A DNA stretch of 64,000 nucleotides from Prorocentrum cordatum (taxonomy: Eukaryota): assembly GCA_963575745.1 (NCBI GenBank), contig CAUYUJ010000001.1, positions 1,178,001 through 1,242,000 of the forward strand. The letters run 5' to 3'. This document shows, in pieces, positions 7,021 through 50,241 of the stretch. The notes under the pieces are model-generated. The model was not told the origin of the DNA. It did not search any database and saw nothing but the letters and a program-made list of their open reading frames with translations. A program made the position numbers and the translations under genes. Position 1 is the first letter of the stretch. Each line of letters opens with the position of its first letter.

Positions 7021-10000
7021 GGAAATCAAGAATGAGCGAGGGGGCTGGGAGAGGGATGAGTTTGGAAGACGAAAGGGGGGAGGGGGAGGGGCGAGGGCCG
7101 CCAGATGGCGAGGATGCCAAGGCTGCGTGTAGAGCAAGAGGTCGGGCAGCGGACCGGCAGCTGCTGGGGACAACGTCGACCCACGACGACGGTTCGACGA
7201 CGGTGTCGATGACTCGACGACGGCTCGACGACGGCTCGACGACGGCTCGACGACGACTGACGACGGCGGCGGGGCGTCCGCGGCCCGCTCCACGCGATCG
7301 CCTCCGCGGAGACGTCAGACCACCGCTGCCGGACACTTTGGCGGCGGAAGAGGAGGAGGACGACGAGGAGGAGGAGGAGTGAAAGGACCGGGCCGCCGAC
7401 GCCGGCCCCGGGCTCGGCCTTCCTGGGCCCCACGCCGCCGCCGAGCGATGAGAGTGAGGGGGTCGTCAGGGGCCTCGAGGGGGGGGGGGCGGATCCAGGT
7501 TCGAGGCTCGAGGGTTTCGGACGTTCTCATCGGTTCTCGGCGGTTTTGCAGCCTCGGGGTGCCTTTTAGCGGCTGTGCCTCGCGGCCGGCGTTCTGGGTT
7601 CGTCGACAGTCTGCCAGGCTGGAGAACAGATTTGAGGAGGCCCGCCGAGGCGCCGATTAAGCCCAGCACTGCGCCCGACTAGGCCAGATTGGGCGCCGAT
7701 TAAGTTGAGCACTATGCCCGCCTAAGCCGGATTGAGCGCGATTAGATAGAATTGAGCTGGATTATACCGGATTGGGCCAGTTTCCGACCACAGATATACC
7801 AGCGCCGATGCTGAAGTGAACCCGCCAGGAGTTGCATTCTTAATGTTTTACACAAGGAGCCCGCCGCAGGCGCCGAATTTTCGTCAGAGCAGTGTGGGCG
7901 GGTCCCAGGTGGGTCGCGAGTGGGTCGCGGCCGGGTCGCGGGCGGGTCGCTGGCGGGTCGCGGGCAGGACGACGACAAGAGGAATCCCCACCACGGATTT
8001 CAACTTCGGGCACGCACCCAGGGACGGTATGTACGACCGTTCGGCCCCCTCGCTCTTGATAATAGCGAGGCATGGATGCGCGCAGAGTCCTCGAGGTCTG
8101 ACTGTTCACGGAAGGCTGAGTGGCCGCTGGGTCAGCACGTGAAATTGTAGCGGAGTTCGGAGCGAGCGGATACAGAAGACGCGCGCGCAGTTAGTCACGT
8201 GAAATGACTGCTGCCAGCAGGAGGAGGAGGCGGCCCGCCAAAGTGCAGCATCCCACGTTTCTGGATGGACCCAAAGTGACTTCGACTTCGAGGAGCCTAG
8301 GAGTTGTCGTCTCGCCCTTGGCGGAGGGTGACGGAAGCCGGTGGAGGCAGAACGGGGATTGTTCTGTTGGCAGAAGCCGGCGGAAGCAAAAGTTGCCCCA
8401 CTCAAGAGGCCCAGACTTCCGATGGGATTGCTTCAATGCGCGACCGCAGAGGTCCCGTGTCCATTCTTGACGGTCCCAGTGCCCGCACGACCACGGGCCC
8501 CAGAGGCCAAAATTTAGGGAAGACGCCCAGACCTTGCAAAAATGTATCTTCGGAGACCTGCGGGTGCAGTGTTTGGGGGACTCAGCGGCATCCGGAGCAG
8601 CCCATCCGCTGGCCAAACTCGACGAAATTCGGACATGGATGAAGGCGGGTGGATCAGCGGCAGGGCCCGTTTCCACGCTTGAAGGCGAGTGGATCAGCGA
8701 CAGGCAGCGTTGGTTTCCTGTTTTAGGGGTGGCCTTGCCCGATCCGTAGATCTGGCGCCCACACGCCAGATCCACGGATCCCTGACCCAGTCTACAGCCA
8801 ACATGTATAGTAAGGATGAGCGGCTTCCCAAGGTTTCCGTTGCATCCTTTCCCTTCGGCTCATCCTTGGCCACTTTCGTTGGCCACGCCCCGCCCGAAAA
8901 GTGTCGGCAAGGCCTTCCGAGGCCCCTGCATCCTCACGGTGGAGGCATTCGTTCAGGAATGGGCCCAGGAGGCTTCAGACCCTGGGGGATTCCTTATCTG
9001 ATGAGGGCGGCATTGTTATCCATGGCCGATCCACGATCGCAGTTTCACCGGCTTCCAGACCCTGGATTCCTTCTTTAAGGGTCCGAGATGAGTTCGCGGA
9101 GGCCGCCCGATCGCGAGCGGTGGACCCCAGCCAACGCCAGGTGCGGAGATCATCGCGTCCTCGGTGGCTGGGGCGGGGCGCGCCTCTCGAATCCTATGCA
9201 TGGGCACGGGTCTCGGCCCTCGAAGTGAGAAAGGGTTCCTTAAGAATTTGTGGGGCTCCTTACATTTGAGGGTCCCTTATATGCAAGGGTTCCTCCAGAC
9301 CCTGGATTCCTCATCCTCCAGAGGAGGAGGAGGAGGAGGAGGAGGAGGAGGAGGAGGAGGAGGAGGAGGAGGAGGAGGAGGGGGAGGAGGAGGAGGAGGG
9401 AGGAGGAGGAGGAGGAGGAGGAGGAGGAGGAGGAGGTCAGGGATCCTGACCCGGTGCCCTCTCACCTCCCCGTGCATCCTCACCATCAGCTCGGCCTGCA
9501 GCGCGTGCCCGGCCACCCCCGGGCTCCCACGCCCGCGCCCCCCCGGCAGGAGCAGCCGCAGGTCCTCCTGTCCATCCGGAGGCCTCCACGCCACGAGGGC
9601 CCAGGCCCCGCGGGGAGCGGGCCCTGGGCGGGCCGCGGGCCGGGCAGCAGGCTCAAGTCGGGCCCGTCCCTCTACAGGAGGAGTATGCAAGAGAATGGCC
9701 ACGCAATGGTCCGGGGGCCATTCTGCTATCATTTCTGCACATGCTTGGGCACCGTTTGACCATTCCAATTTGTCGCCCAAGTTCCGCCTGTAGGGGGATA
9801 CGTTCGACCTAACAGCAGGCGCAGGAGCGCTCCGAGAAGCCGTGCGAGGTCGATCGATCAAGAGCCAGACACAGGGAAGCGAGCAATGACATAAACATGA
9901 AAAAACTCGGAGGTCCTCGCGGATGTCTCGCATCGGCGCTGGACCCCGTCGCGTGCCAGATGGTAGGTGCAGGCGTCGGCGTGGGGTGAGGCCTGGGAGA

Positions 10001-14742: not shown

Positions 14743-17700
14743 ATGAAGCCTCCTCTGGATCTACATGCCCAGAGGCGCACAGTACCTCATCACGATCAAG
14801 AAGAAGATATCTGGATACTTGCAGACGTGTTTGGCAAATTACCCAAGTTCATCGACATCACCAAGGTGAAGCTCCACTGCACCAACGGAGTCAAGGACTT
14901 AGACCACGCCAACCAGCAACGAGTTGCAGTTATCAGCCCAGCCCCACGCAGGACACGAAGCGAGGCCCCACCCCAGCGTCAACAAGAAGGAATGTCAACC
15001 TTCATGTACTACAGCAAGGGCTACGACAACAAGAAGGCGCTTATCTACACCCCAGGAGCCCCCCAAGCAGAACCACAAGGCGCTGCTCCTTGAACAGGCA
15101 TCGCAATGCCATCCCAAGGAGTCAACACGGCTGAAACCTCGTCACGCCATTACACCTACGTCTACCTCGACCTGGGATGTATCTAAGTACCCGCGGCAAT
15201 GAAGGGAGGCTTCGTACGCACCACCTACCGACACCACATCACCATCGCCTACCTCGCAGCAACTGGGGAGTGCTGGAAGGACAAGGTCAAGGAGAGCTGG
15301 GTCACCGTACTGGACAGCTTCATCGTGCACTCCAACAACGAGCTATGGACCGACACAAACCATTAAATAAATCAACCTAATCATTGCCCTCACTACCGCA
15401 CTGCTACAAAATACCGCACACCAGAAGATGCAGCAAACGACCGCGACCCCAAGAAGATCATCGTCCACAACTTGGAGTGACACGACATCCGAAGGCGGGC
15501 AACCACCGAACCACCACTACTACAAGCACCACCTTGGAAGAACAAGGACGAAGAGCCCTTCGCGAACCTCCAGACGCGGCACATCCTCAAAGGGAATGGC
15601 ATGGAAAAGCGCCACAACTGCGAGGAGAAAGAGCGCCAAGCCATCCACAGCAACATAGAGAGATTTACCCAGAATGCGTACATACTGGCAACCACCGACA
15701 TCTACGGCACGCTGCACCCCACCTCTGACATTGGCACACTGGCAGCATACGCAAGCGACATCGTGGAAACCCGTGGAGGAGGAGCACTACACCCATTCAC
15801 GGACAACTACAGACTACCCGTCGATCGTCCTCACGTTACTCCACAGACCATCGGCGGACTGCACTGCGAAGAAACCGACCTCACGGGACAGCGAGTACCA
15901 GTATACTTTTGCCACCAACGAGGAATCGCACTCCTATCCGCATGGAAAGGAACATACCGAACAACACCACTACCTATGAAGGAGATCGACCACGCGACGA
16001 TTCTAAAACTGAGCTCACCCACCAGCGACTTCCCCAAGTGGCCCTCCATCATAGACAACGCCTTCATCGAATGCCCAGCCAAGGTGGCACAGGAGATCAC
16101 CACGACCTCGGAGATATGCACAGCAAGAACCGACAGAACCACCAACGTCCACACGGAGGCACACAAGAAGGAGACCATCGTTCACCACGCCGACTTCACC
16201 CCAGATGGCGATGCATTACCAGAGATAAGACAGAGACCGGATTACCAACCACCAGTATACAAGCCACCCACAGAAATACTGCTAGGGGCCATCACGCTGA
16301 TCAAGGTCAACGACATCGACAAGCTATCTGAATAGGACGCACACAAAGCAAGACAGTACCTCATCGAGGACGAGGACAACCACAGCTCTCGCCACCTGCT
16401 CCAGCACCACCAGAAACTACGCAACGTTGGCTTTCAGCCCATCAACTGGACCCAAAGCTACTTCCCCGAATGGAATGCAGCCTTCCCAGAAGTCCGACCA
16501 CAACAAGCGCAACGACCAGCACGGCAAACACCGACCTGCTGCTCATACAAGAAGGGACAACACCACAGGTCGAACAAACCACTCCTCCATCTACGCCGAC
16601 TATCTCCCAGCTCATATACAACCAGGACGCGACGCCGACAGCGCGCCGGCCGACGCCGCCACAGGGACCACCACCAGGCAGAGCCCCAGCACAAACCACA
16701 ACGACGACGCCGACCCCCCGATACTTGCGCCACCCAGTCGCTCCGCCAAGGTACAATCAAGGCGACATCCTGTGGCCCGACTCCAACCGCAATGCAACGC
16801 TGCCACCGGGATGGCAGGCCGCCGCCGACGTAAACAGGAGCCGCGTTGACTACAAACAAGGCGGCTGCTTCCACCACAGTCTCAGGTGGATATTCCCCCC
16901 CTCCAAACGACCACCCCGCATTGCCAGAGCACCCCGTGAAACGAGAGCAGGTCGACAGAGCAATGACACAGACCATCCACGACCTACTCGACAGGCTGAG
17001 GACACAATACCAACAGGAACAGAGAGCACGCGACTGGGTCGATCGAGCACACCTGTGGTACAGCGACATCGCAGGCGGCACCTTCTTCTCCCACGTCAAG
17101 GCCAACCAGGAACCCAGGCCGTTCCTCACTTTCGGCAACAACATGTTCGCGATCGCACCCACGCTAGAGGGAGGTCTACACCCTCCACGAGTCAGTCACA
17201 TCATCCACCGCATTAAGCAGCTGCACAGCCCAAGACCAATACTCGCACCATACGACGACCACAGCACGTTCGACCGCGAGATACATATCGAGATGCCACC
17301 GACCCGAGACGCGAGCACACGCGAAGCCACCATGCACAAGAACGAAGACACGACAATGACTGAGGGCAACAACGCGGCGCACCTACCGAACGACGAAGCA
17401 CCTACGAGCAACGCAGACGCATCTACCAGCGCAACCCCATCAAGCATATCACCAGTACTGACACCCAACCAGCAGCAACGACCAATCCAGCATAGCCGCG
17501 CGACCCCAGCAGCGAAGACTGCGAAATTCGAAGCGCAGCCCACCCTACCGACAGTCCAAGACGAAACAGCAGAGCAACCTACACACGTGATGGACAACGA
17601 GGTCAACACCAGACAGCACGACCTTGACCTACAGGAGCAACACACAACCACCAGGGAACCCAGCTGCTCCAACCCGACGTCCAACGAACGACAGCACATT

Positions 17701-18205: not shown

Positions 18206-19773
18206 ACTTCGGCGATCGCAATCCTCGCCATCACCTACCAAACACTAGACGACCGCACGAGGTGCCCACGCGCCCGACGTCACAGCCAGCGGAAACGCCT
18301 TCCCGACCTCTGATCTACGCTCCAACTGTTCCTCATCAGCTATCGCTTCCTGAACCGCACCCTCCGCATCGTCAGCGGGAGCATCCTTGCCCTCTACATC
18401 CTCGGCTACTCCATGCATACGAACTGCACCCTCCTGACACACTACCACCTCGGAGGGGCAGGGAGGGATGGGAGTGGATGAGTGTGGAGGTTAATGGGTT
18501 TGGTGGGTGCGGTGGTCGGTGTGGGGGTGGGTTAGGAGGGCGCACACCAGTCGACCCGCAATTCCCTCCCCTCGTTCCTCCCCTCCTTCGTTCGCTTCGC
18601 CGCCCGCGTCCCCCTTCGACCTCCTCTTTCGGGCCCCCGTCCGTTTCTCCCCCCGAGTACCTCGCCGGCCCCACCACCGCTGACCAGCCCATTTTCCGAA
18701 TTGGCCCCCTCCTGCGGTGCCTTACGGCACCCGCAGGAGGGGGCCATTGGCTGCACCAACAAATTGGATCAACAGCCGCGAGCGAGCGAGCGAGCGAGGA
18801 GGAAGCGGAAAATGAGCAGGAGAAGGAGGAGCGGGAGGAGGAGGGGCAGCGCGGGGCAGAGGGATGCACAGGAGGCAAGGGAGGAGAGGAAAGCAGGAGA
18901 AGCAGGAGGAGGAAGCGGCGAAGGGAGAGGAAGAGGACCAGGAGGAGAGAGAAGACAAGGAAGAGGACTCGTGGCCCCAACCACTTGGATAGATGGGCCA
19001 GACCACCTGTCACAAGCGTTGGCCGTACCGCTGGGCACACTTCTTCCTTTTGTGACCAGGCCGACTGGGTTGAGCCACGAGAACAACGTTTCTAAGCCCA
19101 AGGGAAAATGCAGTCAGGAATTTTAGCTTAGCGCGTCACGCCGCCAGTTCTGGCCCACCACGTTTCGGCGCGACGCGCTATCCCGTCCCTCTGAGCGGAG
19201 CGGCACGCTGTCAGCTCGCAGGGCATGGCGTGTCGACGGGGCCACCGCCGCGGCACGCTGTGCAAAAGTTCCTGACAGTCTGGCCCACTTAGAACAGCTT
19301 CTGATTTGTTTATTTTGCGGCCGCAGAGCTCCCGACCCCTTATGCCCTGGGTAGTTTTTCGTCCCGGTTCGTTTTTGATTGCCCTGGGGCCCGATAGCAG
19401 GCCCCGGAGGCCGAAATCCAGGAAAAGCGCCAGGACTGAAAAAAACATGAGTCGGTGCCAAGCCTCGGTGCGAGTCCGCTGCGCAGCCGGGCGTCTGCTC
19501 GGAGGTAACCCCGCGTCGGCCCACCTTATCCACAGGACGACGGCGACGAGGGCACGAGCGCAGAGGGGGAGGCAGGAACGAACGACGAGGCGACCGGGGA
19601 AAGGGAGGAAACGCAACGCCCCTGCTCCCCACGTCTGGCGGCAGTGACGGCGCCCGAGTGACGGCTTGTCCTTTCCCTTGAGAGCCGACGACACTGAAGA
19701 TTGACAACGTCGTGAGAAGCCCCGGCGCCGTGTCTCGATCCGTGAAGGTCCTGGGGCCCCAAAAGATGCGAAA

Positions 19774-20005
19774 ATGCCCCGCTCGGAGAAAATTGCGACG
19801 CCATGGATCTCAGGGTCTCCCCGGCGCCCCGAGGACGCGGGCAGCCCAGCGGACGCCGGGGGCGAGCGCGCCCGCGTCGGCAAGTGGTTGTCGCGGGCGC
19901 TGCAGGCGGAGCGCGCCGCCGTCGCTCGCCTGCTGGAGGCCCGGCACTCCGTCCTGGTGCAGCAGTTCGAGCGCAGGGGACAGCAAGGCCTTGGCCGCGC
20001 ACAGG
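19774..20005 (+). CDS. Possible N-terminal exon of the channel gene (helical/coiled-coil segment)
   Basis: ORF segment RVGKWLSRALQAERAAVARLLEARHSVLVQQFERR has coding-like GC3. It is on the same strand, upstream, and followed by repeat-filled intron-like DNA. The link to the channel is inferred. Confidence 0.35.
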
Positions 20006-20590
20006 CCAGGATGGAGAAAACACTCCTCCCTCCCTCCTGCCTCCCTCCCTCCTCCTTACTCCCTCCCTCGTCCTCCTCCTCCTCCTCCTCCTCCTCCTCC
20101 TCCTCCTCCTCCTCCTCCTCCTCCTCCTCCTCCTCCTCCTCCTCCTCCTCCTCCTCCTCCCTCCCTCCGCCTCTTTCGTAGCCGCGCGGCAAAGGCAATC
20201 CGCACGCGCGCCCTCTGGTAGCTGGGGCGGTGCGTATGAATTGTCTGGCTGCAGCAGGAAGAGACAGGTCTGAGGGCGGCCGCGGAGCAGGAGCGAAGGG
20301 GGGAGGCCACTCGCAGCGCGAAAGTCTTCGGCATGAGGGGCCGGTGCGGCCGGCCGTTGTCGAAGGGAAAAACACACAGACACAAGTGAACCAAGATCCC
20401 GAGGAAAATGTGGGAGAATGTGAGCGGTGGAGGGGAAGACGGCACTCCAGATAAAGTATGAAAAAAATGTTAGGTATCCTAGGGGTTGTGTCTTTTTACG
20501 CGCGTGCCCCTGGACGCCTTCCACAGGTCGGGACCCCCACCTCCTCTCGCTGCGGAAAGAGACACGACACCAGAGATCCGAGGGTACAGT

Positions 20591-22270
20591 TAACCCGCAT
20601 AGTAAGGATGAGCAGATTTCCAAGGCTAACCTTGCATCCTTCCCCTTCGGCCCATCCTTGGCGGCTTTCGCTGGCCGCTCCTCACTCGCAAAGTGTCGAC
20701 ATGGCCGTCCAAGGCTCTTGCATCCTCATCATGCGTCCGTATTATACGGGTTGACTGTATGCTGTTTTCAATCAGCGGTGTTTCCTGGATTTCGGCCTCT
20801 GGGGCCCGTTATCGGGACCGGGGGCCATCATCAGAAATGGATCCAGGACGAAAAAACACCCCTGGGGATGTTTTCAATCCAGCGTTTTTTTTTTGAATTT
20901 CGGCCTCTGGGGCCCGTTACAGTCAACCCGCACAGTAAGGATGAGCAACTTTCCAAGGTTACCCTTGCATCCTTCCCCTTCGGCCCATCCTTGGCCTCTT
21001 TCGCTGGCCGCGCCCCGCTCGCGAAGTTCGGCATGGACTTCCAAGGCCCTTGCATCCTTATCGTGCGACCTTATTGTAATGGCCTCCGGCCAGTGCCACC
21101 GATCCGGGGGGCTCCGGATTCGGTGATCTTGGAGTCGTCGGGGACGCTGTTTGGGATGGAGGGCGCTCTTGGAGTCGTCGGGGACACTTTTTGGAGCTGA
21201 CGTGCCCTCTGGGGGGGTGCCTGGAGCGGTCCGGGGGGGGGGGGGGCCGGGGATGGTTCCGAGGGGAGGGTCCTGGGGGCGGTAGCGGCTAGATCTGAGG
21301 GGGGTCCCTGGGACCCCCCGAAACATTTTGGGGATGCGCAGATCATTAAGAAAACGCTAGATGGGGGACCGCCAACCCCCCTCCCCCGCTTATTCCCCTG
21401 GGTGAGGGGTCCGGGGAGGGTTCCACGGGGAGAGTCCTGGGGGGGATCCTTGGTACCCCCCGAAACATCTTGGGGATGCGCAATTGCTTTTTAGAAAACG
21501 CCAGATGGAGGACCCCCCCCCTCCCTTTCCCGGCAAAGCCACCCCGGCGACCCCCCCCAAGCAGAGCTGAAGCTCTTGCTGAGGCTCAGAGCTGAAGCTC
21601 TTGCTGAGGCTCCTTGTAGCTCACACGCCGGATCGGCGGATTATACGGATTGATCGTATGTGTTTTGTTGATCCAGCGGTTTCTCCTGGATTTCGGTCTC
21701 CGGAGCCCATTACGGCCAAGGGTCCATCAAACTTGGATCTGGGGCGAAAAACCAGCCCCGGGGATGTTTCCAATCCAGCGTTTTCTCCTGGACTTCGGCT
21801 TCCGGGACCCGCACAGTAAGGATGAGCAATTGTCCATGTTTACCATTGCATCCTTCGCCTTCGGCCCACCCTTGGCCGCTTTCGCTGGCCGCGCCTCGCT
21901 CGCAAAGTTTCGGCATGGCCTTCCGAGGCACTTGCATCCTTATCGCGCGTCCTTATTATACGGGTTGACTTCTGTGATTTGTGTAATCCACCAATGATGT
22001 TTCCTGGAGTTCGACCTCCAGGGCCCGTTATCGGGCCCAGGGGCTATCAGAAATGGATCCTGGACGAAAATCCACCCCTGGTGATTTTTTGTCAATCCAG
22101 CGTTTTTTCCAGGATTTGGTCCTCCAGGGCCTCAGAGATGGATCCGCGACGGGAAGACCACCCCCGAGGATTTCTTCAATCCATTTTTTTTCCTGGATTT
22201 CGGCCTCCGGGGCCCGATATCGGCCCCGGGGGCTATCAGAAATGGATCCGGGACGAAAAACCATCCCCGA
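20591..22270 (+). repeat. Cluster of dispersed repeats (AGTAAGGATGAGC...TTGCATCCTT family and TTTCGGCCTCTGGGGCCCG family)
   Basis: First family at 20591-20760, 20921-21075 and 21805-21970, also 8808-8937 (+) and 59040-59207 (-). Second family interleaved here, also at ~8495 (-), ~19390 (-) and ~51910. Confidence 0.85.
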
Positions 22271-23143
22271 GGAAGGAGTCGGGGACCGCGGATTGAGAAA
22301 ATCGTATCGTCGGATGTTTGGGACGCGAGGTGTTTGGCAATTGTTTCGGCTTCTGGGGGCCCTCACTCGGCCGCTGGGACCGTCAAGAATCGACTCGGAA
22401 TGAAAGATTTGTCTTGTGGAAGGGCTCTAGAGATCTCTGGGTTGACGTCGTGGAAAAAGCACGACGTCGAAGATCTGGGCTGTTGCCCACGGTGCTCTTG
22501 GCGCAAGTTACCCCCAGGACTCCCCGAGTAGCCCAGATGGCCTCGACAGCGCTCCCTCACGAGGCCCTGGGGGCCCCAGGATGGCACGCATAGCTGGGGG
22601 GCCCTGGGCCAAGGCCACCCCTGGTAACCCCCGGCGGCGGAGGTCACTTCGGCCGACGAGCTCACGCGCTCCGCGCCCGTGGGCGCCCTGCGGACGCTTG
22701 CGCCGCCGAGCCCGAGGACGCTGCCCGGGTCCTTGGCGGACAGCGCCGAGGCGCCCGAGGCGCCCGGCGGGCAGCCGAGCGGGGTGCTTCCGGACCTGGC
22801 TTGGGACGCCGTCAAGCTCCAGGATCGCGACGACAGCTTGGTACCCAGGGCGGGAAGGCCTCGAGGTCCTGGCGTTGCAGCTTTTTCGAGTCCGCAGGTG
22901 TCGCATCATTTCGAGCCCCGGACCCTCACAGATCGATCTGGCTCGGAAACTGGCGCAGAAAGATGGGGTCCCGGGCTCTGGCCGTGAGTTTCCACGATGT
23001 TGCAATTGTGGGGGGTCGTCGGATCTCGGGGGAGATGCGATGCCGCTACCCGCCCCTCGTCGCCACGGCTGGATTCGCCTCGAGATCTTGGTCAGAGCGC
23101 GCGCGCCCGGGGAGAGGTCCGGGGAGCAGCCACTTTGATCTCC

Positions 23144-23670: not shown

Positions 23671-23971
23671 GTTCAGAGGAAGAGAAGCTACGGATGCCGC
23701 GTTGGGCCTCCTGGGAGGCCCTCGTCGCCACGGCAGGGGTCGCCTCGAAATCCTGGTCAAACTGCACTCTAGGAGAGGTCCTGGGAGTGGCGGGTGAGCG
23801 ACGCAGGAGAACGGGTTCGATTGCGCCGACATTCGCGCGCAAGTTGCCCGCATAAGGCCGCGCGTCAGCGCCTTCTTCTCCACTCGGCGTGCCTCGCTGG
23901 AGGCCCGTGTAGGCCACCGCGTAAGGTCGCCGCGTCATCTCGCGAGAAACCAGTTTATGATCGTCGCTCAG

Positions 23972-26196
23972 GTGATCAACAGGGTGACTTCGACGGTTTT
24001 CCGCAAGCGCGAGGAGCAAACGACGCGTCTCGGCAGGCTCGTGACCAGCACCCGCTTCGAGGCCGCCGGGGCACTTCTCGTCATCGTGCTCGCGGTCTGC
24101 ATGGCGATGGAATCGCAATATTCGGGGCTGGACCTCGGCTTCCAGCTGGGATACGGGTCTTACTTCAGGCCGGCTGCGCGGGTCTGGCCCTGGGCCGTCG
24201 ATGTGCTCGACGTAATGAGTTTTGTGCTGGGCGTCGCGTTCTGCTTTGAGCTCGCCTTGAAGCTCCTAGGGCTCGGACTGCACGGCACTTTTAAAGAAGT
24301 CTGGAGCATCTTCGACGCCGTGATCACGGTGCTGTGGATTGCAGAGGTCGTCCACTTGGATCGCCAGGTGCACTCGGACGCTCATTTGATTCGGGTTATC
24401 CGCATATTCCGGCTTGTTCGCTTCATACGGCTGGTCAAAACGACGAGGATGCTCGATTCCTTGTACTTGATCTGCACTGCTCTGAGAGGAAGCGTTTCAG
24501 CCTTGGGCTGGGCTTCCGTTATACTATTCCTCGCCCAGGTCCTCGTGGCGTTCCTCATAACCGAAACCTTGAGCCTCTGCTACTTCAACGATGACCGAAA
24601 CGACGAGCAGCAGCGGAGAGAAGTGTTTGAGTATTTTGGCACATTCACCAGGGCCGTCCTCTCCACATTCGAGATGACGCTGGCGAACTGGCCGATCGCC
24701 TGCCGGCTGCTCGCCGAGAACGTGAGCGAGTGGTTCGTCGTGCTCTGCCTCGTGCACAAACTGACCGTAGGCTTCGCGGTGGTGGGCATCATAAAAGATG
24801 TAAGTACGCCACCCTGACATACGAGGTACACGCACACGTGATTGAAGTGCTTCTCATTGATGGTCACCAGCCCCTCGACGACGACGACGAACGTACGTCA
24901 GTGGACTAGTATCCGTCAACAAATCCTTTTCCCTCTTCGTAAAATTTCTAGTCCCATCTCACAAGCAGCCCGAAGCATACGAACACGATCCGCACGTTCA
25001 TCAGCCTGAGAGAAAACAATCCAGTCAGACTTACATCGGCGTACTTACATCTTTTATAGGTGGTGGGAATCATCAACGGCGTGTTCATCCAGGCTTGGCG
25101 ATCCCAACCGTGTGCCAGACCAGTTTGATGCACGCTTCCGCGCGCCCCAGCATGTGCGGAAGCCCGCGTTAAGCTAGCATGTACCGCGGTTGGCGTCGTC
25201 CAGCTAGGAGACCTTCAAGTGTGCCCACGACGACGATTTGATCCTCATACGCCAGAAGGAGCGCGCCCTCGCCACGCACGTCAAGAAGATGCGAAAGCTC
25301 TTCCAGGCCGCCGACCAGAACAACAACGGAGTGCTGGACCGGGAAGAGTTCAAGCGCATCCTGCAGGACCGCGACGTGAGGACGTGGCTCACCGCGATGG
25401 ACTTCGGCGGCGCGCTCGAGGGGCGTGGCGTGAGGGGGGCGGCCTTCTAAGAAGGCAGGGGGGCTTCTCAGAGGGCCGGGGCCTTCGTAGAAGCGCCCGG
25501 AGACTTTCAGGTAAGCTTCTTCTCCAGGCGCTTCTTAGAACGCCCTTGCCTTCTAAGAGGCCCTCTTGTTTTCTGAGAAGGCCACCCCCCTCGCACCACC
25601 CCATCGTGCGCGCCGCCAAGGACTACGACCTTGATGACACGGACATGTTCTTCAGCATGCTCGACGCAAACGGCAGCAACACGATCTCCCCAGAGGAATT
25701 CATGAAAAGAAAAATACATAAGCATAGACTTCTGGAGGTTCGCGAGGATTTCTGGGCTCCGCGTCGGATCCCCTTGCATCCTTGGCGCAGACCCGCGCGG
25801 ACCTCCGAAAGTTTATGTCTATGCAGTTCTCCCCAGCGGAAAGGTTGGCGATGTTGGATTAGAAGAGTAGGGATCCCGACCCGCTTCGCACACCTTGCAT
25901 ACCGCGGCCGCCAGACCCAGAGTGCCAGTGCTCCCTGGACATTCCGCCTCGTGCCTTCGACGAATGACGACTGCCGCGGCCGCCAGGACTAGTGACTAGA
26001 GTGTGCCGGTGCTCCATGGGGATCCCGCCTCGCGCTCCTGGGAGGTAAAACTGCAGGATCGCTCGAAGCAAAAGAGCTTTGTTCCCTCCAGGAGTTCGTG
26101 AACGCCATCACCCGCCTGCGCGGCGTCGCCAGGTCGGTCGACGTCAAGCGGCTGCTCACGGAGTTCTCCATAGACGCCAGGGGCGGGATGCGCTGA
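23972..26196 (+). CDS. Single-domain (6TM) voltage-gated cation channel with two C-terminal EF-hands (EukCat-like). Exons 23972-24778, 25060-25092, 25208-25399, 25621-25695, 26092-26196; 5' exons lie further upstream
   Basis: Hydrophobic S1-S3; S4 IRVIRIFRLVRFIRLVK; pore FGTFTRAVLSTFEMTLANW. S6 HKLTVGFA|VVGIINGVFIQ|ETFK joins in frame after removing GT-AG and GC-AG introns. EF loops DQNNNGVLDREE and DANGSNTISPE|E; tail FVNAITRLRGVARSVDV. The final stop at 26196 is tentative. Confidence 0.88.
24779..25059 (+). mobile_element. Introner-like intron (GT-AG) with a perfect 20-bp terminal inverted repeat
   Basis: ATAAAAGATGTAAGTACGCC (24791-24810) is the exact reverse complement of GGCGTACTTACATCTTTTAT (25038-25057). 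The intron start GTGGTGGGCATCAT duplicates the next exon start GTGGTGGGAATCAT. Confidence 0.8.
25400..25620 (+). mobile_element. Introner/MITE-like intron (GA-AG) of the CCTTCTGAGAAGG family
   Basis: Ends CTTCGGCGGCGCGC / GCGCGCCGCCAAG are inverted, and the inversion extends inward. Related copies at ~52641-52854 and ~53640-53840. Confidence 0.75.
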
Positions 26197-27349
26197 GGTC
26201 GTAGTGCGGGGCTGGTGCCGCGGATCGGCCAAGGAAGAGAATTCAGGGCTCACGAACGTGGACCGTGGGGTCGCCGCTCCCCCTGTCCCGCAGCCAGGCA
26301 CAGGGCCAGGCCTGGCTGCGCAGGCAAGACCCTGGTGCTGCGGAGCTCGCACCCGAGCTCCTGGCCCCCGTTGGAGGTCGCCGCGAATCCTCCTGGGTCG
26401 TGCTTCCTTCGCGTCTGGAGGCGAGCTGGAACACCGATACGGAGCAGCGGCCACGCCTGCTCTCCCCCGCCCGATCTCGAACAGCAACATCGGCATGTGC
26501 ACGTGCTTTCGGAGACGTCCGTGCGCCCTGGCCCCCCCCCGTTCGCGGCGCCTCCGGCGCCGCCCCTGGCGCGCTCCGCGCTCTAGGGAGGGGAAGCTAG
26601 CGCCGACTCAAGCAATCCGCGCAGACCTCCGAGAGTTCATGTTTATGCTGATTGATTGCATGCCTGTGTTGGGTAGCACCGCTGTTCATTTTCAGTTTCG
26701 ATCTCTGGCCGCTTCTCTCCCTCCCGTCCAGCCTCAATTCTTTCACCCTCTCTCTCCTGTCTCCTCCTCCCACCCTTCCGGTAGACACGTTCTGCGCTTT
26801 ATCTGCGCTCGCATGCATCCATGCGCCCTGGACTTTGAAGGGTGTCCAGTCTCTCTCTCGTCTCCGACTGCTCTCTCTCTTCTCCCTCCCCTCCCCGAGC
26901 GTCCATCGTTCATCCTCCTCCCCTCCTCCGCCTTGCAGACGCAGGACCTGGTGCACCATCTCTCCCTCTCCTTATCTCCATCTCTCTATCTCTCTCTTTC
27001 TCTTTCTCTTTCTCCTTATCTCTCACACCCTTTCTCTCTCTCTCTCTCTCTTTCTCTCTTTCTTTATCGCGCTCTGTCTGGCTCTCTCTCTCTCTATCTC
27101 TCTTTGTCTCTCTCTCTCTCTCTTTCTGTCTCTCGTTATTTTTCTCTCTCTCTCTCTCTCTCTATCTATCTCTCTTTCTCTGCCTCTCTCTCTCTCTCTT
27201 TCTCTCGAGTCTCGGCTCGAGAGTGCCTGGCACTCAGATCGAGCCCCGACGCGAAGCCTCCGGCTTCTCATCGCCCGGCGAGACCAGACCCGCGCCCTTC
27301 AGCGCGGGGCTGATTCGCGTCCCCCTCGGTACCCCGCAGACGGCCGCAG

Positions 27350-46230: not shown

Positions 46231-48656
46231 AGTTCAACACACGCCTAAGATGCAGTCGCCGATCGTGGATGCGGTCAAGATTGCCAAGGAACTATACGCC
46301 CGCGGCTGCAACATTTTCGCCGACAGCGTTGCGACCACCCCTGTGGTCAACAGCGCGGGACGCGACCTGGATGACGCAAGCGTCCCGCGTCAATCCAACG
46401 GCGTCATCGCACGACCACCAGGCGGGAGTCTGAGATGTCCTGCTTGCACGGAAAGCGCACGGATGAGTTCACCTCGACACAGTCGCAATCCCAGGATTTG
46501 CACATGGAGTGATAAAGAACCACCTTACTGGGAACGTCCTACGTGTAAGACAGACTAGGGCAGCAACAAGGCTGGACACTTACTGCCCCCAGGCACATGC
46601 AAATTTGACAAACCCGAGCAACTATTCGACAACCTCGGAGAGCCACCAGCGGCGCCAGCTGCAGCAGGAGCCGTCATGGCCAGCGGTTATCATGGAGATC
46701 GCAGCGGCACATCGAGCGTCGCCGGCAGTTCGACTGCCCGCAGACAGGTTGAAGGAAGGCGTGGACGCGCGTAGGGCGGCGAGGATCCACCACCGCCGCC
46801 CCAGGCGCAAGCCGACGCACGGCCACTCGCGAGACTACCGGACTGGTCACGGTTCGGCGTTCAAATTAATATCCAGAGTTTGTGCAGTTTTGACCCAGCT
46901 GTAGTCACGAAAGAATTGCGCCGGCGTCATATCCGACGGTATCGCGCCACGGAACCGAAGATGATAGAAATGATTTCAAAGGTGGATCTTGACAGTGCGC
47001 GCCTTGACATGGCGAAGGTAGTCTGCGGTTCATACCGCGGAGGCAGGTCTGCGAAAAAAATGGTAACAAAGTTACGCCATCAGTCAGCATCATCATTGAT
47101 CGCTGCACTCGAAGGCAGCTGGACAGCAGTGAACAAGACAACGCACAGCATTCTGGACGCCTACCATCAGCCTTGGATGCAACGCGGACCTGCCAGGGTC
47201 CTGCATTCTGATGGTGAGGGGCCTTGAACAACGACACAGCCAAGGCCGTCCTTAAGCCAAGGACACTGAGCTTCGCGTGCGAGCGCGCGGCCAGCACGCT
47301 ACCACCATCGAGACGGCATTACTCGACACGCCTCACGCCATGGAAGAAGAATTCAAGAGGGATAACAAACTCTATCGTCTGCACGAATACTGCGCGAAGC
47401 CATGTCTGTGAGCAGTGCGCTCACCTCTACGATGGTGTTTCACCTTACTAAGCTCTTTACGGGCGACAGCCTGCACGCGTCCGGGACCTTCCAACTATTG
47501 ACCACGAACATGGTCAAGAAACCTCAGATCATAACCGCGAACAGCGGATCAGAAAGATTAGCATTGAGGCTCTCACGCAGACCATTGCAGTAGGTAAAAT
47601 CAACCGTGCCTCAGTCACGAAGATTACACCACCTGACCATCTACAAGCCAGTGGATCTCGTTGGCTACCACCGACCTACCACAACAAAAGACGACTGGAG
47701 TAGCTGGAACGGCCCATGCCGAGCCGCGAGGAATGATCCCGAACGCGGCAAAGTTCCGGCGCGGGTCGGGGGGAGAGAAGTCTTGGTTCAGCACCCAGAC
47801 GCACAGCGCACACTGCACGCGGAATCATGCATCGCCCGCGAGATCGGCTCCGATAGCACGGCCACGCGTACAGTGCTGGCCTGTATCGCAGCATTACCTT
47901 TGGGGAAACCTGCTATGATTTCTGGCGACTTGCAAGCGAAGCAGGCAGCCCTGCGACAGACGACCGCGAGCAAGCGATCGCCCAAGGTCCATTTGGCCTT
48001 ACCATATCACATCAGGGATTATTTCTGGATCGAAGACGTAGTCGCAGTGAGAATGGCCAAAAGCGTTCAACGATTCCCTGCAGCGGTTTACATTAGCAGT
48101 TGTACGCTGGCTTACTACGACAGCGACATTATCCCAGGATTCCGCTGCTACGCATGAATGAAATCGCACAGCCTTGAACATATGGTATTATTGTCATGTC
48201 ACACGCATGGGGTGCTCTGGCGCCTTAAATCCTCGAAACCGTCGGCGGGCTTCGATGATGATTCATCAAAGTTCGAAGTGCTGGCGGAAACGCCGCCACC
48301 ACCGAGCGGCCAGCCCAGGAGAAAGCCCAACTGGCTCCCCCCGAGCCCAACGACAACCGCCTATCCACCATCTACGGGCGTCCGACGGCGACCTCGAGGC
48401 ACACAGCATGGAGACATGGCACACAGGATGAGTGGTAGAAAAGGAACTCCTGGAGGCCACTCCCTCTGAGGAGTTATACACAGCACCAACCCAGATGATC
48501 ACCGAAAACTGCGCGCTGCTGACTGCGGCCAGTGAAGAGCAGGGCAGGGACACTTGCCCACGCGGGGCAACCAGCAGTACGACACCGAGGAAGCATACCA
48601 TGCCCCCTTGTGCTCAATGAACCATGACGTCACAAATGAATTAGATTCCGACGAGC

Positions 48657-50241
48657 ATGGACAATATGTTGAAATCTCTGTCAAACATGATGATTTCGAG
48701 ATATGTGTACATATGGAAATTCGTCAATAACGAGAACGGAGACATGCAACGCACCATTCGACTCCGCCTTGCGTTGCGGGGACCCATGAACCCCGAGGCT
48801 TTTGATGTGAAGACCTTTTTCAGGCAGTGCCAGGCGATTGAGCCAGAGGCTACTCGCCAGCACGGCCGCGCACAAGATACAGCGGACCATTGCATCCATG
48901 GACATCGACAACGTTTTTTTTCTGAAAGGGGCTCACATACCGCGAGCTGGACGAGGCAACTGGATAGTACGTGTTTACCTTGAAACCAGGTTCAGCCACC
49001 GTCCCGAGGCCACTCCCAGGCTTCGCGTCCAGAGACGAACCGAAGCATTGCCTGCAGTACCTTGAACGAGGCGCGGGGACCAAAGACGCCCCGCGGGCGT
49101 TCTCGCTGAAGCTTCGCACGACCACTCGAGGAGTCGGACTACGACACACATCATACGATAACGAGTTCGAGACTAGCCAGACCCTTTTGACGGCAAAATC
49201 AAACGATGGCATCAACATGGCCAGTACTGGAGACATGATCTGCAAGAATGTCAAATTCATCGAGAACACTTTCGGCGCATGCAAGCTTACCACGCACACA
49301 TACACAAACTTCGCCGCGAGGCACCTCAAACTTGAAGATGGCGGCACCACCCTCGACCGGGGCGAATGCGTCAAACACCTCCACCCCATACAGCATCCGG
49401 AATTCCGAGGCGCTGAAATTGCAGACGCGGCGACAAACGTTACGGCTGACATGTTCATCAGCTTTCGAAATTTTTTGGCCCACGCCTTAATCACCCAAGA
49501 ATTGTCGATGGCGCACGTAGGATCTCTACAACAAGTCCAAGAACCGACCAACATACAGGCACGACGACTAAATGCTATAACCAGGAAGCTACAAGCAGGC
49601 CCAAAGAAAATTAGAGACCAGCCTATGATTCCGCCAGGAGAATTGGCCCTGCACAGCGACTCCGGTTACCAGTGTTTCAACGGCAACGCCGCCGACGAAG
49701 AGAAGAGGCACGGCGTCAGATATACCAAGCTACTTTGGCGTGGACACACGCAAGGTGGAAAGCCTGTCGCACACCTGGTAGACACACATTGCACCCCATC
49801 GGCTACACGCACGCTCTAGCTATTCAGCAGAAACGCTAGCAGCAGGCCACAACTTGGAAGATTCCGACTATCAGGAGACTCCACGAATTCCAGGTAGGAC
49901 CATTCATCCCAACACAGCTCAAAAACAGATTGGAAATGGGTGGCCGGTGCACCAGAGTCACGCTGACCATCGATGTTGAGTCCGTCTTCATACCCCTATC
50001 TCACAAGGACTTCAAGAATTCGACAGAATGTACACTGCTAGCTCACATAAGCAGGATTAGACATGTGATGGACAGGGGTATCGCACATAGTGTACAAGTG
50101 TGTGACACACGTGATATGACAGCCGACGGACAGACCAAAGGTAGTATCGATCGTGAGTTGCTCCTACAAGTGATGCCAGGTATTCAGCACTTCGAACATG
50201 ACCTGAAGAAACATGCGCCGTACTGGGCGAATCAGGCTTGA
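48657..50241 (+). pseudogene. Copia reverse transcriptase-RNase H, frameshifted
   Basis: ORF pieces 48657-48983, 48838-49065, 48971-49819 and 49930-50241 carry the RT and RNase H motifs. The catalytic HVDD is degraded. Confidence 0.85.

What the first reader, a model, noticed from the sequence alone, without database searches (positions are those of the whole stretch)
24779..25059. Intron that is a TIR element with the target duplication still visible
Seen: a perfect 20-bp inverted repeat at the intron ends. The first 14 nt of the intron repeat the next exon (one mismatch; both read VVGII). The donor GT comes from duplicated exon sequence and the acceptor AG from the element end. Known: Introner elements create introns this way. 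The perfect TIR suggests a young insertion or selection for end pairing.
Basis: partly seen in the sequence, partly recalled or inferred. Interest (0 to 1): 0.7.

Follow-up and report, generated by a model that had tools for sequence, protein, structure and literature searches.

The report
Probable transposon-made intron, dinoflagellate channel gene
A 281-base insert with hairpin-forming ends sits in a dinoflagellate ion-channel gene and is cut out of the messenger RNA exactly as an intron; this way of making introns is already known in these algae, and only the longer-than-usual insertion scar stands out.

Summary
There is a perfect 20-nt inverted repeat (24791-24810 / 25038-25057; best of 5000 shuffles 10 nt), and the intron start repeats the next exon (13 of 14 nt). 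Contigs of 4 of 4 laid runs skip exactly 281 nt. Only one compatible cut has an AG end: GT 24779 to AG 25059. The host is an intact ion-channel/EF-hand gene of a dinoflagellate. Best reading (0.7): an introner, a non-autonomous TIR element whose donor came from the target duplication and whose acceptor came from its own end, as published for Symbiodinium and Polarella. Not shown: a second copy. None lies in the window, no genome is held, and searches of mostly prokaryotic and viral collections gave only single-arm hits. The duplication is 8 nt perfect, 11-12 nt with one mismatch; published introners have 3-9. Ordinary, low interest.

The parts
24779..25059 (+). Spliced intron, 281 nt, GT...AG, phase 0, within the codons of the last transmembrane helix (S6, label recalled) of the channel
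   Evidence: Joint skipping 281 nt in 4 of 4 runs; only compatible register ending in AG; open frame after removal
23972..24778 (+). Upstream exon, ion transport domain (PF00520)
   Evidence: Pfam 1.4e-18; contigs cover 23965-24777 with 1-5 other letters in 4 runs; 5' edge at 23972 inferred from the AG at 23970-23971
24779..24790 (+). Intronic copy of the duplicated target (8 nt perfect, 12 nt with one mismatch; 14 if the 2 nt shared with the arm are counted); supplies the donor GT at 24779-24780
24791..24810 (+). Left arm of the perfect 20-nt inverted repeat
24800..24805 (+). Textbook donor motif GTAAGT inside the left arm; use would add 7 codons in frame; no contig shows its use; predicted fully paired in the stem
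   Evidence: No 260-nt joint in 4 of 4 runs; pairing probability 1.0 at all 6 bases
24811..25037 (+). Interior of the insert, 227 nt; insert 47% G+C against 58% in the exon; no Rfam match, no relative found
25029..25037 (+). Second copy of a 9-nt word of the right arm (subterminal repeat or slippage copy)
25038..25057 (+). Right arm of the inverted repeat; pyrimidine-rich run before the acceptor
25058..25059 (+). Acceptor AG, just outside the perfect arm
25060..25092 (+). Downstream 33-nt exon; its first 12-14 nt are the copy of the duplication kept in the mRNA (GGA at the Gly codon)
   Evidence: Joint placed before the mismatch, 9 letters fitting either side, in 4 of 4 runs

Best explanation
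An introner-derived spliceosomal intron. A non-autonomous cut-and-paste element of about 270 nt with roughly 20-22-nt terminal inverted repeats was inserted, by a transposase encoded elsewhere, just before the codons GTG GTG GGN ATC of an ion-channel gene. The staggered cut duplicated the target. The first copy begins with GT and became the donor; the element's right end finishes in AG and became the acceptor. Splicing removes the element plus one copy of the target, so the protein is unchanged. Shown: the repeats, the exact excision, the GT-AG register, the intact protein. Inferred: transposon origin, spliceosomal removal, and the true duplication length. That length is 8 nt if only the perfect part counts and 10-12 nt if the mismatch arose later; in every register the left end departs by 1-2 nt from the mirror of the right end (CT...AG).
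For: Perfect 20-nt terminal inverted repeat beyond chance (0 of 5000 shuffles). Duplication beyond chance. Exact 281-nt skip in 4 of 4 runs; only GT-AG register. 17 of 17 homologues that reach this helix have the same 22-residue motif as the spliced product (the 18th ends earlier). Published model for Symbiodinium and Polarella: inverted repeats ending at the 3' splice site, donor from the start of the duplication, 4- or 8-nt duplications (Roy et al. preprint). Introner-type introns are 2.4% of introns in Prorocentrum cordatum (supplement passage). Insert is poorer in G+C than the exon. Another intron of the same gene is a foldback spliced exactly.
Against: No second copy: none in the window at up to 5 mismatches; genome not held; 0 of 35 loci from collection scans had a facing second arm within 5 mismatches or any likeness to the interior, though these collections are mostly prokaryotic and viral. 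No empty site was seen, because no run recorded as DNA was returned. The ends are not flush-symmetric in any register. An 11-12-nt duplication is longer than the 3-9 nt cited for introners. The arm has no superfamily signature that I could assign.
Confidence: 0.7

Rival explanations
1. Repair-born intron. A staggered double-strand break duplicated about 12 nt of exon and captured a foreign fragment. The inverted repeat came with the fragment, or arose by templated fold-back copying of the left junction, which also made the extra 9-nt copy at 25029. It is a one-off, not a member of a mobile family.
For: New Daphnia introns share direct repeats of 4-12 bp with the adjacent exon (PMC4202315 passages), which fits 12 nt better than 3-9 nt. 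The duplication and the arm share 2 nt, like a microhomology. Ends are not flush. No other copy found.
Against: The Daphnia passages describe no terminal inverted repeats (0 occurrences of 'inverted' in the main text). A perfect 20-nt arm ending 2 nt before the acceptor matches the published dinoflagellate introner geometry. Such elements are common in this lineage.
Confidence: 0.2
2. The stem is kept by selection because it hides the textbook donor GTAAGT at 24800 (use would put 7 residues into the channel helix) and brings the splice sites together.
For: All 6 bases of the motif are predicted paired (probability 1.0) while the used GT is paired at about 0.4; the arms pair at -29.5 kcal/mol. 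No contig uses the motif in 4 of 4 runs. No homologue has an insertion there (0 of 17).
Against: 0 of 20 arm mismatches against 1 of 12 in the duplication is no sign of selection (chance 20/32 that a single change misses the duplication, 12/32 that it falls there; my arithmetic). Dinoflagellate donors have a weak extended consensus, so the motif may simply not be favoured. The whole region folds no better than shuffles (z -1.31). Contigs drop rare isoforms, so non-use is not shown.
Confidence: 0.12
3. The real intron starts at GTAAGT (24800), the element carrying both splice sites and leaving a 21-nt in-frame footprint, as in some Aureococcus introners; or it is cut at the hairpin borders without canonical ends.
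For: 24779-24799 is 21 nt and open in frame. Footprint-leaving introners are published. Earlier notes on this genome report hairpin introns without canonical ends (not tested here).
Against: All 4 runs show the 281-nt skip, none a 260-nt skip, and the joint lies before the C/A mismatch, which excludes cuts at the hairpin borders.
Confidence: 0.02

Closest known systems
Introner-like elements of Symbiodinium and Polarella glacialis classes 4, 5 (4-nt TSD GHNN) and 6, 8, 10 (8-nt TSD GHN6); Roy et al., bioRxiv 10.1101/2020.10.14.339549 (read parts 1-3 of 4 of the text; figures not held)
   Same: Donor taken from the first bases of the duplication, acceptor from the element's end, inverted repeats ending at the 3' splice site, scarless mRNA. 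The perfect part of the duplication here is 8 nt and starts GT (fits GHN6).
   Different: The match runs on to 12-14 nt with one mismatch; the left end lacks a clean CT mirror of the AG; no family was demonstrated here.
Introner elements counted in Prorocentrum cordatum (Dougan et al.; preprint passages, PMC10666404 supplement passages) and Amoebophrya (Farhat et al. 2021, PMC7789003, passages)
   Same: Intron with an 8-20-nt inverted repeat within 30 nt of each end plus a direct repeat across the boundaries; meets that pattern definition.
   Different: Their pattern asks for direct repeats of 3-5 nt; this one is 8-14. Unlike most Amoebophrya cases the ends are canonical GT-AG.
Identical repeated intron boundary (IRIB) of dinoflagellates (Mendez et al. 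2015, PMC5032977, passages)
   Same: A sequence repeated at both intron boundaries and kept once in the mRNA; 9 identical nt here, within the reported 2-11.
   Different: That description has no inverted repeat and proposes no transposon in the passages seen; there the repeat carries AGG at the donor, here GCG|GT.
Break-repair introns of Daphnia pulex (PMC4202315, passages)
   Same: 4-12-bp direct repeat shared with the adjacent exon.
   Different: No terminal inverted repeat described.
Transposon groups with long duplications: Mutator/MULE (7-12 bp, PMC10741241 passages), bacterial IS4 family (about 10 bp, some subgroups with CAT ends, PMC2266710 passages), hAT (8 bp, TIR 5-27 bp)
   Same: Duplication length and short arms overlap these ranges; an 11-nt register gives a left end starting CAT.
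   Different: No transposase and no family consensus, so no assignment is possible; MULE arms are usually long.

Membership tests
Introner (intron-generating transposable element) | Insert is removed from the mRNA as an intron | tested here: met
   281-nt skip in contigs of 4 of 4 runs; 2 of the 4 are on record as RNA, the other 2 are of unrecorded kind
Introner (intron-generating transposable element) | Splice sites from the duplication and/or the element end | tested here: met
   GT = first bases of the duplicated copy; AG = last bases of the insert
Introner (intron-generating transposable element) | Family of sequence-similar introns at unrelated sites | tested here: inconclusive
   None in 64 kb; genome not held; scans of metagenome, genome and viral collections gave 3, 7 and 25 single-arm hits, 0 of 35 with a second arm; these collections are poor in dinoflagellate nuclear DNA
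Introner (intron-generating transposable element) | Empty site in another allele, orthologue or paralogue | not testable with these tools
   No run recorded as DNA among 24 listed; paralogues seen only as proteins or spliced contigs
Non-autonomous TIR DNA transposon (MITE) | Terminal inverted repeats | tested here: met
   20 nt perfect; outermost 1-2 nt not symmetric
Non-autonomous TIR DNA transposon (MITE) | Target duplication directly abutting both arms | tested here: inconclusive
   Duplication present, but no register from 8 to 14 nt gives both a flush duplication and fully mirrored ends
Non-autonomous TIR DNA transposon (MITE) | Short, without a transposase gene | tested here: met
   About 270 nt; stops in all six frames
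Polarella classes 6/8/10 (8-nt GHN6 duplication) | 8-nt duplication beginning GH | tested here: inconclusive
   8 perfect nt beginning GT, but the further match of 3 nt (chance 0.012) or 5 nt (0.0005) after the mismatch argues for a longer one
Polarella classes 6/8/10 (8-nt GHN6 duplication) | Sequence likeness to those families | not testable with these tools
   Family sequences not held; two 12-nt arm words had 0 hits in 12 of 14 supplement files of PMC12130899, which may not hold the sequences
Non-canonical hairpin introns (Amoebophrya type) | Excision without GT/GC/GA-AG ends | tested here: not met
   A GT-AG register fits, and the joint lies before the mismatch

The most novel reading that the evidence does not exclude
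The insert is the first seen member of an introner family that makes 11-12-nt target duplications, longer than the 3-9 nt cited for introners, driven by a Mutator- or IS4-like transposase. In the 11-nt register the ends differ by one base, so the acceptor AG may have been made by a one-base gain after insertion, turning a hairpin-guided insert into a canonical intron; the stem would meanwhile hide a textbook donor carried in the arm.
Probability: 0.2. Interest if true: 0.45.

Novelty: new member of a known kind. Interest (0 to 1): 0.2.

Why it matters
As it stands it is one more verified example of transposon-type intron gain in a group where thousands are published, with a transcript-checked junction useful for gene annotation. 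It would matter more if a genome search showed a family with 11-12-nt duplications, which would add a transposase type to those known to make introns, or if the stem were shown to steer donor choice.

Tried and rejected
Whole-genome search: no genome held. Other copies in the window: none by blastn or by arm scan up to 5 mismatches; one 6-mismatch hit at 7623. A scan of the window for inverted repeats of 12 nt or more with flanking direct repeats printed only this insert and one 2.8-kb element. Arm as exact pattern: 19-mer in metagenome contigs 3 hits; 18-mer in viral contigs 0; 18-mer in prokaryote genomes 7 (about 17 expected by my arithmetic for uniform bases); 16-mer in viral contigs 25. 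0 of these 35 loci had a facing arm within 5 mismatches on the side scanned (best 6) or a blastn hit to the interior at E up to 1, so they were treated as chance. Plasmids, distant mode: no match. Rfam: 11 matches in 24700-26150, none on this intron, all on the neighbouring foldback and below gathering score. No contig of the 4 runs lay on 24792-24973, while other introns of the gene drew many repeat contigs; this is only a hint of low copy number, since these are spliced-RNA assemblies and a 20-nt arm alone is probably too short to be laid. Alternative donor at 24800 and hairpin-border excision: rejected as main form. Whole-region folding not better than shuffles (10 of 100 as good). Earlier findings: 0 near, 0 by sequence (twice), 0 in relatives, 0 for long-duplication words. 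Literature searches showed no paper on this locus; I did not search exhaustively for introners with duplications over 9 nt, and bioRxiv supplements with the Polarella element sequences could not be seen. Part 1 of 239 of supplement file 3 of PMC12130899 was a gene-versus-virus table and of no use.

Full report
Setting. The window is G+C-rich (about 54-68% per 2 kb) and repeat-laden. The finding lies in a + strand gene. Exons 23957/23972-24778, 25060-25092, 25208-25399, 25621-25695 and 26092-26196 join into an open frame with an ion transport domain (Pfam PF00520, 1.4e-18) and an EF hand. The introns start GT, GC, GA, GA, which is typical of dinoflagellates (Roy et al. preprint). A protein search gave 18 hits; 3 are labelled Prorocentrum cordatum at 38-39% identity. 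Earlier notes on this genome name that species; I did not verify it. No whole genome is held.

Observation. The inverted repeat is real: 24791-24810 and 25038-25057, 20 of 20 complementary. In 5000 shuffles the best end-to-end inverted match was 10 nt. The intron's first 14 nt match the next exon's first 14 at 13 positions; the chance is 6.7e-7 given the first G. The mismatch is GGC against GGA, both Gly. The 14-nt repeat and the arm share 24791-24792. And the acceptor AG lies outside the perfect arm. Trying duplication lengths of 8 to 14 nt, none gives both a flush duplication and fully mirrored ends: at 10 nt the first two bases are swapped, at 11 nt one base is missing on the left (or extra on the right), at 12 nt two are missing.

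Splicing. 20 of 24 listed runs hold part of 23950-25400, at most 0.65 of its words, about the exon share; none is recorded as DNA. I laid 4 of them, from four studies, on 23700-26400. All 4 have a contig that skips 281 nt, with 35 letters on the short side and 9 letters that fit either side. Of the 10 cut positions this allows, only 24779-25059 ends in AG. The joint lies before the mismatch, so the mRNA keeps the downstream copy (GGA); I infer this from where the joint was placed. This excludes a cut at the hairpin borders. No contig shows the 260-nt skip that the motif GTAAGT at 24800 would give; that form would add 7 residues, and 0 of 17 homologues that reach the helix have an insertion. 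Contigs drop rare forms, so a minor isoform is not excluded. The three downstream introns are skipped as modelled in 3 of 4 runs.

Which copy changed. A paralogous transcript (62 other letters in 340) in 3 of 4 runs matches up to C24787, so it has GGC. That hints that the intronic copy keeps the older base and that the duplication was longer than 8 nt. It is weak: GGC is the commonest Gly codon in this gene (11 of 21). If the duplication were only 8 nt, the further match after the mismatch would have chance 0.012 (3 nt) or 0.0005 (5 nt, 2 of them shared with the arm).

Copies. None in the window. Exact scans with 16-19 nt of the arm gave 3, 0, 7 and 25 hits in metagenome, viral, prokaryote-genome and viral collections. 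None of the 35 loci had a facing second arm within 5 mismatches or likeness to the interior. These collections hold little dinoflagellate nuclear DNA, so the family test is open, not failed. No Rfam family and no plasmid match.

Mechanism. Most likely (0.7) a non-autonomous TIR element was inserted by a transposase acting in trans; the first copy of the duplicated target gave the donor, the element's end gave the acceptor, and splicing restores the reading frame exactly. The repeats, the excision and the intact protein are shown. Transposition, spliceosomal removal and the duplication length are inferred. The main rival (0.2) is a break-repair insertion: new Daphnia introns share 4-12-bp repeats with the adjacent exon (PMC4202315 passages), and the shared 2 nt and the extra 9-nt copy at 25029 look like repair marks. 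It does not explain the perfect arm as simply.

Age and selection. One mismatch in 32 paired sites is 0.08-16% divergence; Polarella classes have median tip lengths of 0.9% and 3.8% in the two examples given. So 'fairly recent' is fair, 'brand new' is not. There is no sign of selection on pairing: a single change misses the arms with chance 12/32 (my arithmetic), and the region folds no better than shuffles (z -1.31). The stem does bury GTAAGT (pairing 1.0) and leaves the used GT partly open (0.4); that it steers donor choice is a hypothesis (0.12), weakened by the loose donor consensus of dinoflagellates.

Comparison. It works like the Symbiodinium and Polarella introners, with donor from the duplication and acceptor from the element (Roy et al. 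preprint, parts 1-3 of 4 read; Gozashti et al. 2022, PMC9860276, passages). It meets the pattern by which 2.4% of P. cordatum introns were called introner elements, except that the direct repeat is longer than 3-5 nt. Repeated intron boundaries of 2-11 nt are general in dinoflagellates (PMC5032977 passages). Membership in a named family is untested. Other papers seen as passages only: PMC7789003, PMC12130899 (12 of 14 supplement files searched), PMC11282704, PMC2266710, PMC10741241. Introner duplications are cited as 3-9 bp; Mutator elements make 7-12 bp and IS4-family elements about 10 bp.

Verdict. A real, transcript-supported intron of probable introner origin: a new member of a known kind, interest 0.2. 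The boldest reading left open is a family with 11-12-nt duplications, perhaps with an acceptor gained after insertion (probability 0.2, interest 0.45). One search of the host assembly would settle it.

Noticed in passing
window 25400-25620: Next-but-one intron of the same gene is a foldback (82-nt arms, 78% complementary) with GA...AG ends; its first 7 nt match the next exon at 6; skipped exactly in 3 of 4 runs, and repeat contigs lie on it.
   Followed up: partly
window 25696-26091: GA...AG intron whose first 11 nt match the next exon start at 9 (chance 1.5e-4): a second long, decayed duplication in this gene. It holds a decayed inverted-repeat element at about 25700-25836 whose right part draws many contigs with loose ends; a 14-nt near-repeat links 25685 and 25828.
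   Followed up: partly
window 25093-25207: 115-nt GC...AG intron without evident duplication; skipped in 3 of 4 runs.
   Followed up: partly
window 19400-22214: 27-nt perfect inverted repeat 2.8 kb apart with a 9-nt near-direct repeat overlapping its borders; possible larger TIR element holding tandem repeat blocks.
   Followed up: no
window 19805-19977 and 22640-22830: Exon-like stretches upstream of the channel exon, by eye; contigs carry 37 more letters before 23965. The gene's 5' part was not modelled.
   Followed up: no
window 24448-25403: A paralogous spliced transcript, about 82% alike, is present in 3 of 4 runs; its intron state is unknown.
   Followed up: partly
window 15481-16332, 48645-48980, 49840-50238: Open frames of 284, 112 and 133 codons with no Pfam family above cut-off; possibly parts of mobile elements.
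   Followed up: partly
L001 801-819: A 19-nt arm match lies inside a 528-codon frame that looks like a bacterial transposase (label recalled, not tested). It is within the coding part and has no second arm, so taken as chance.
   Followed up: no
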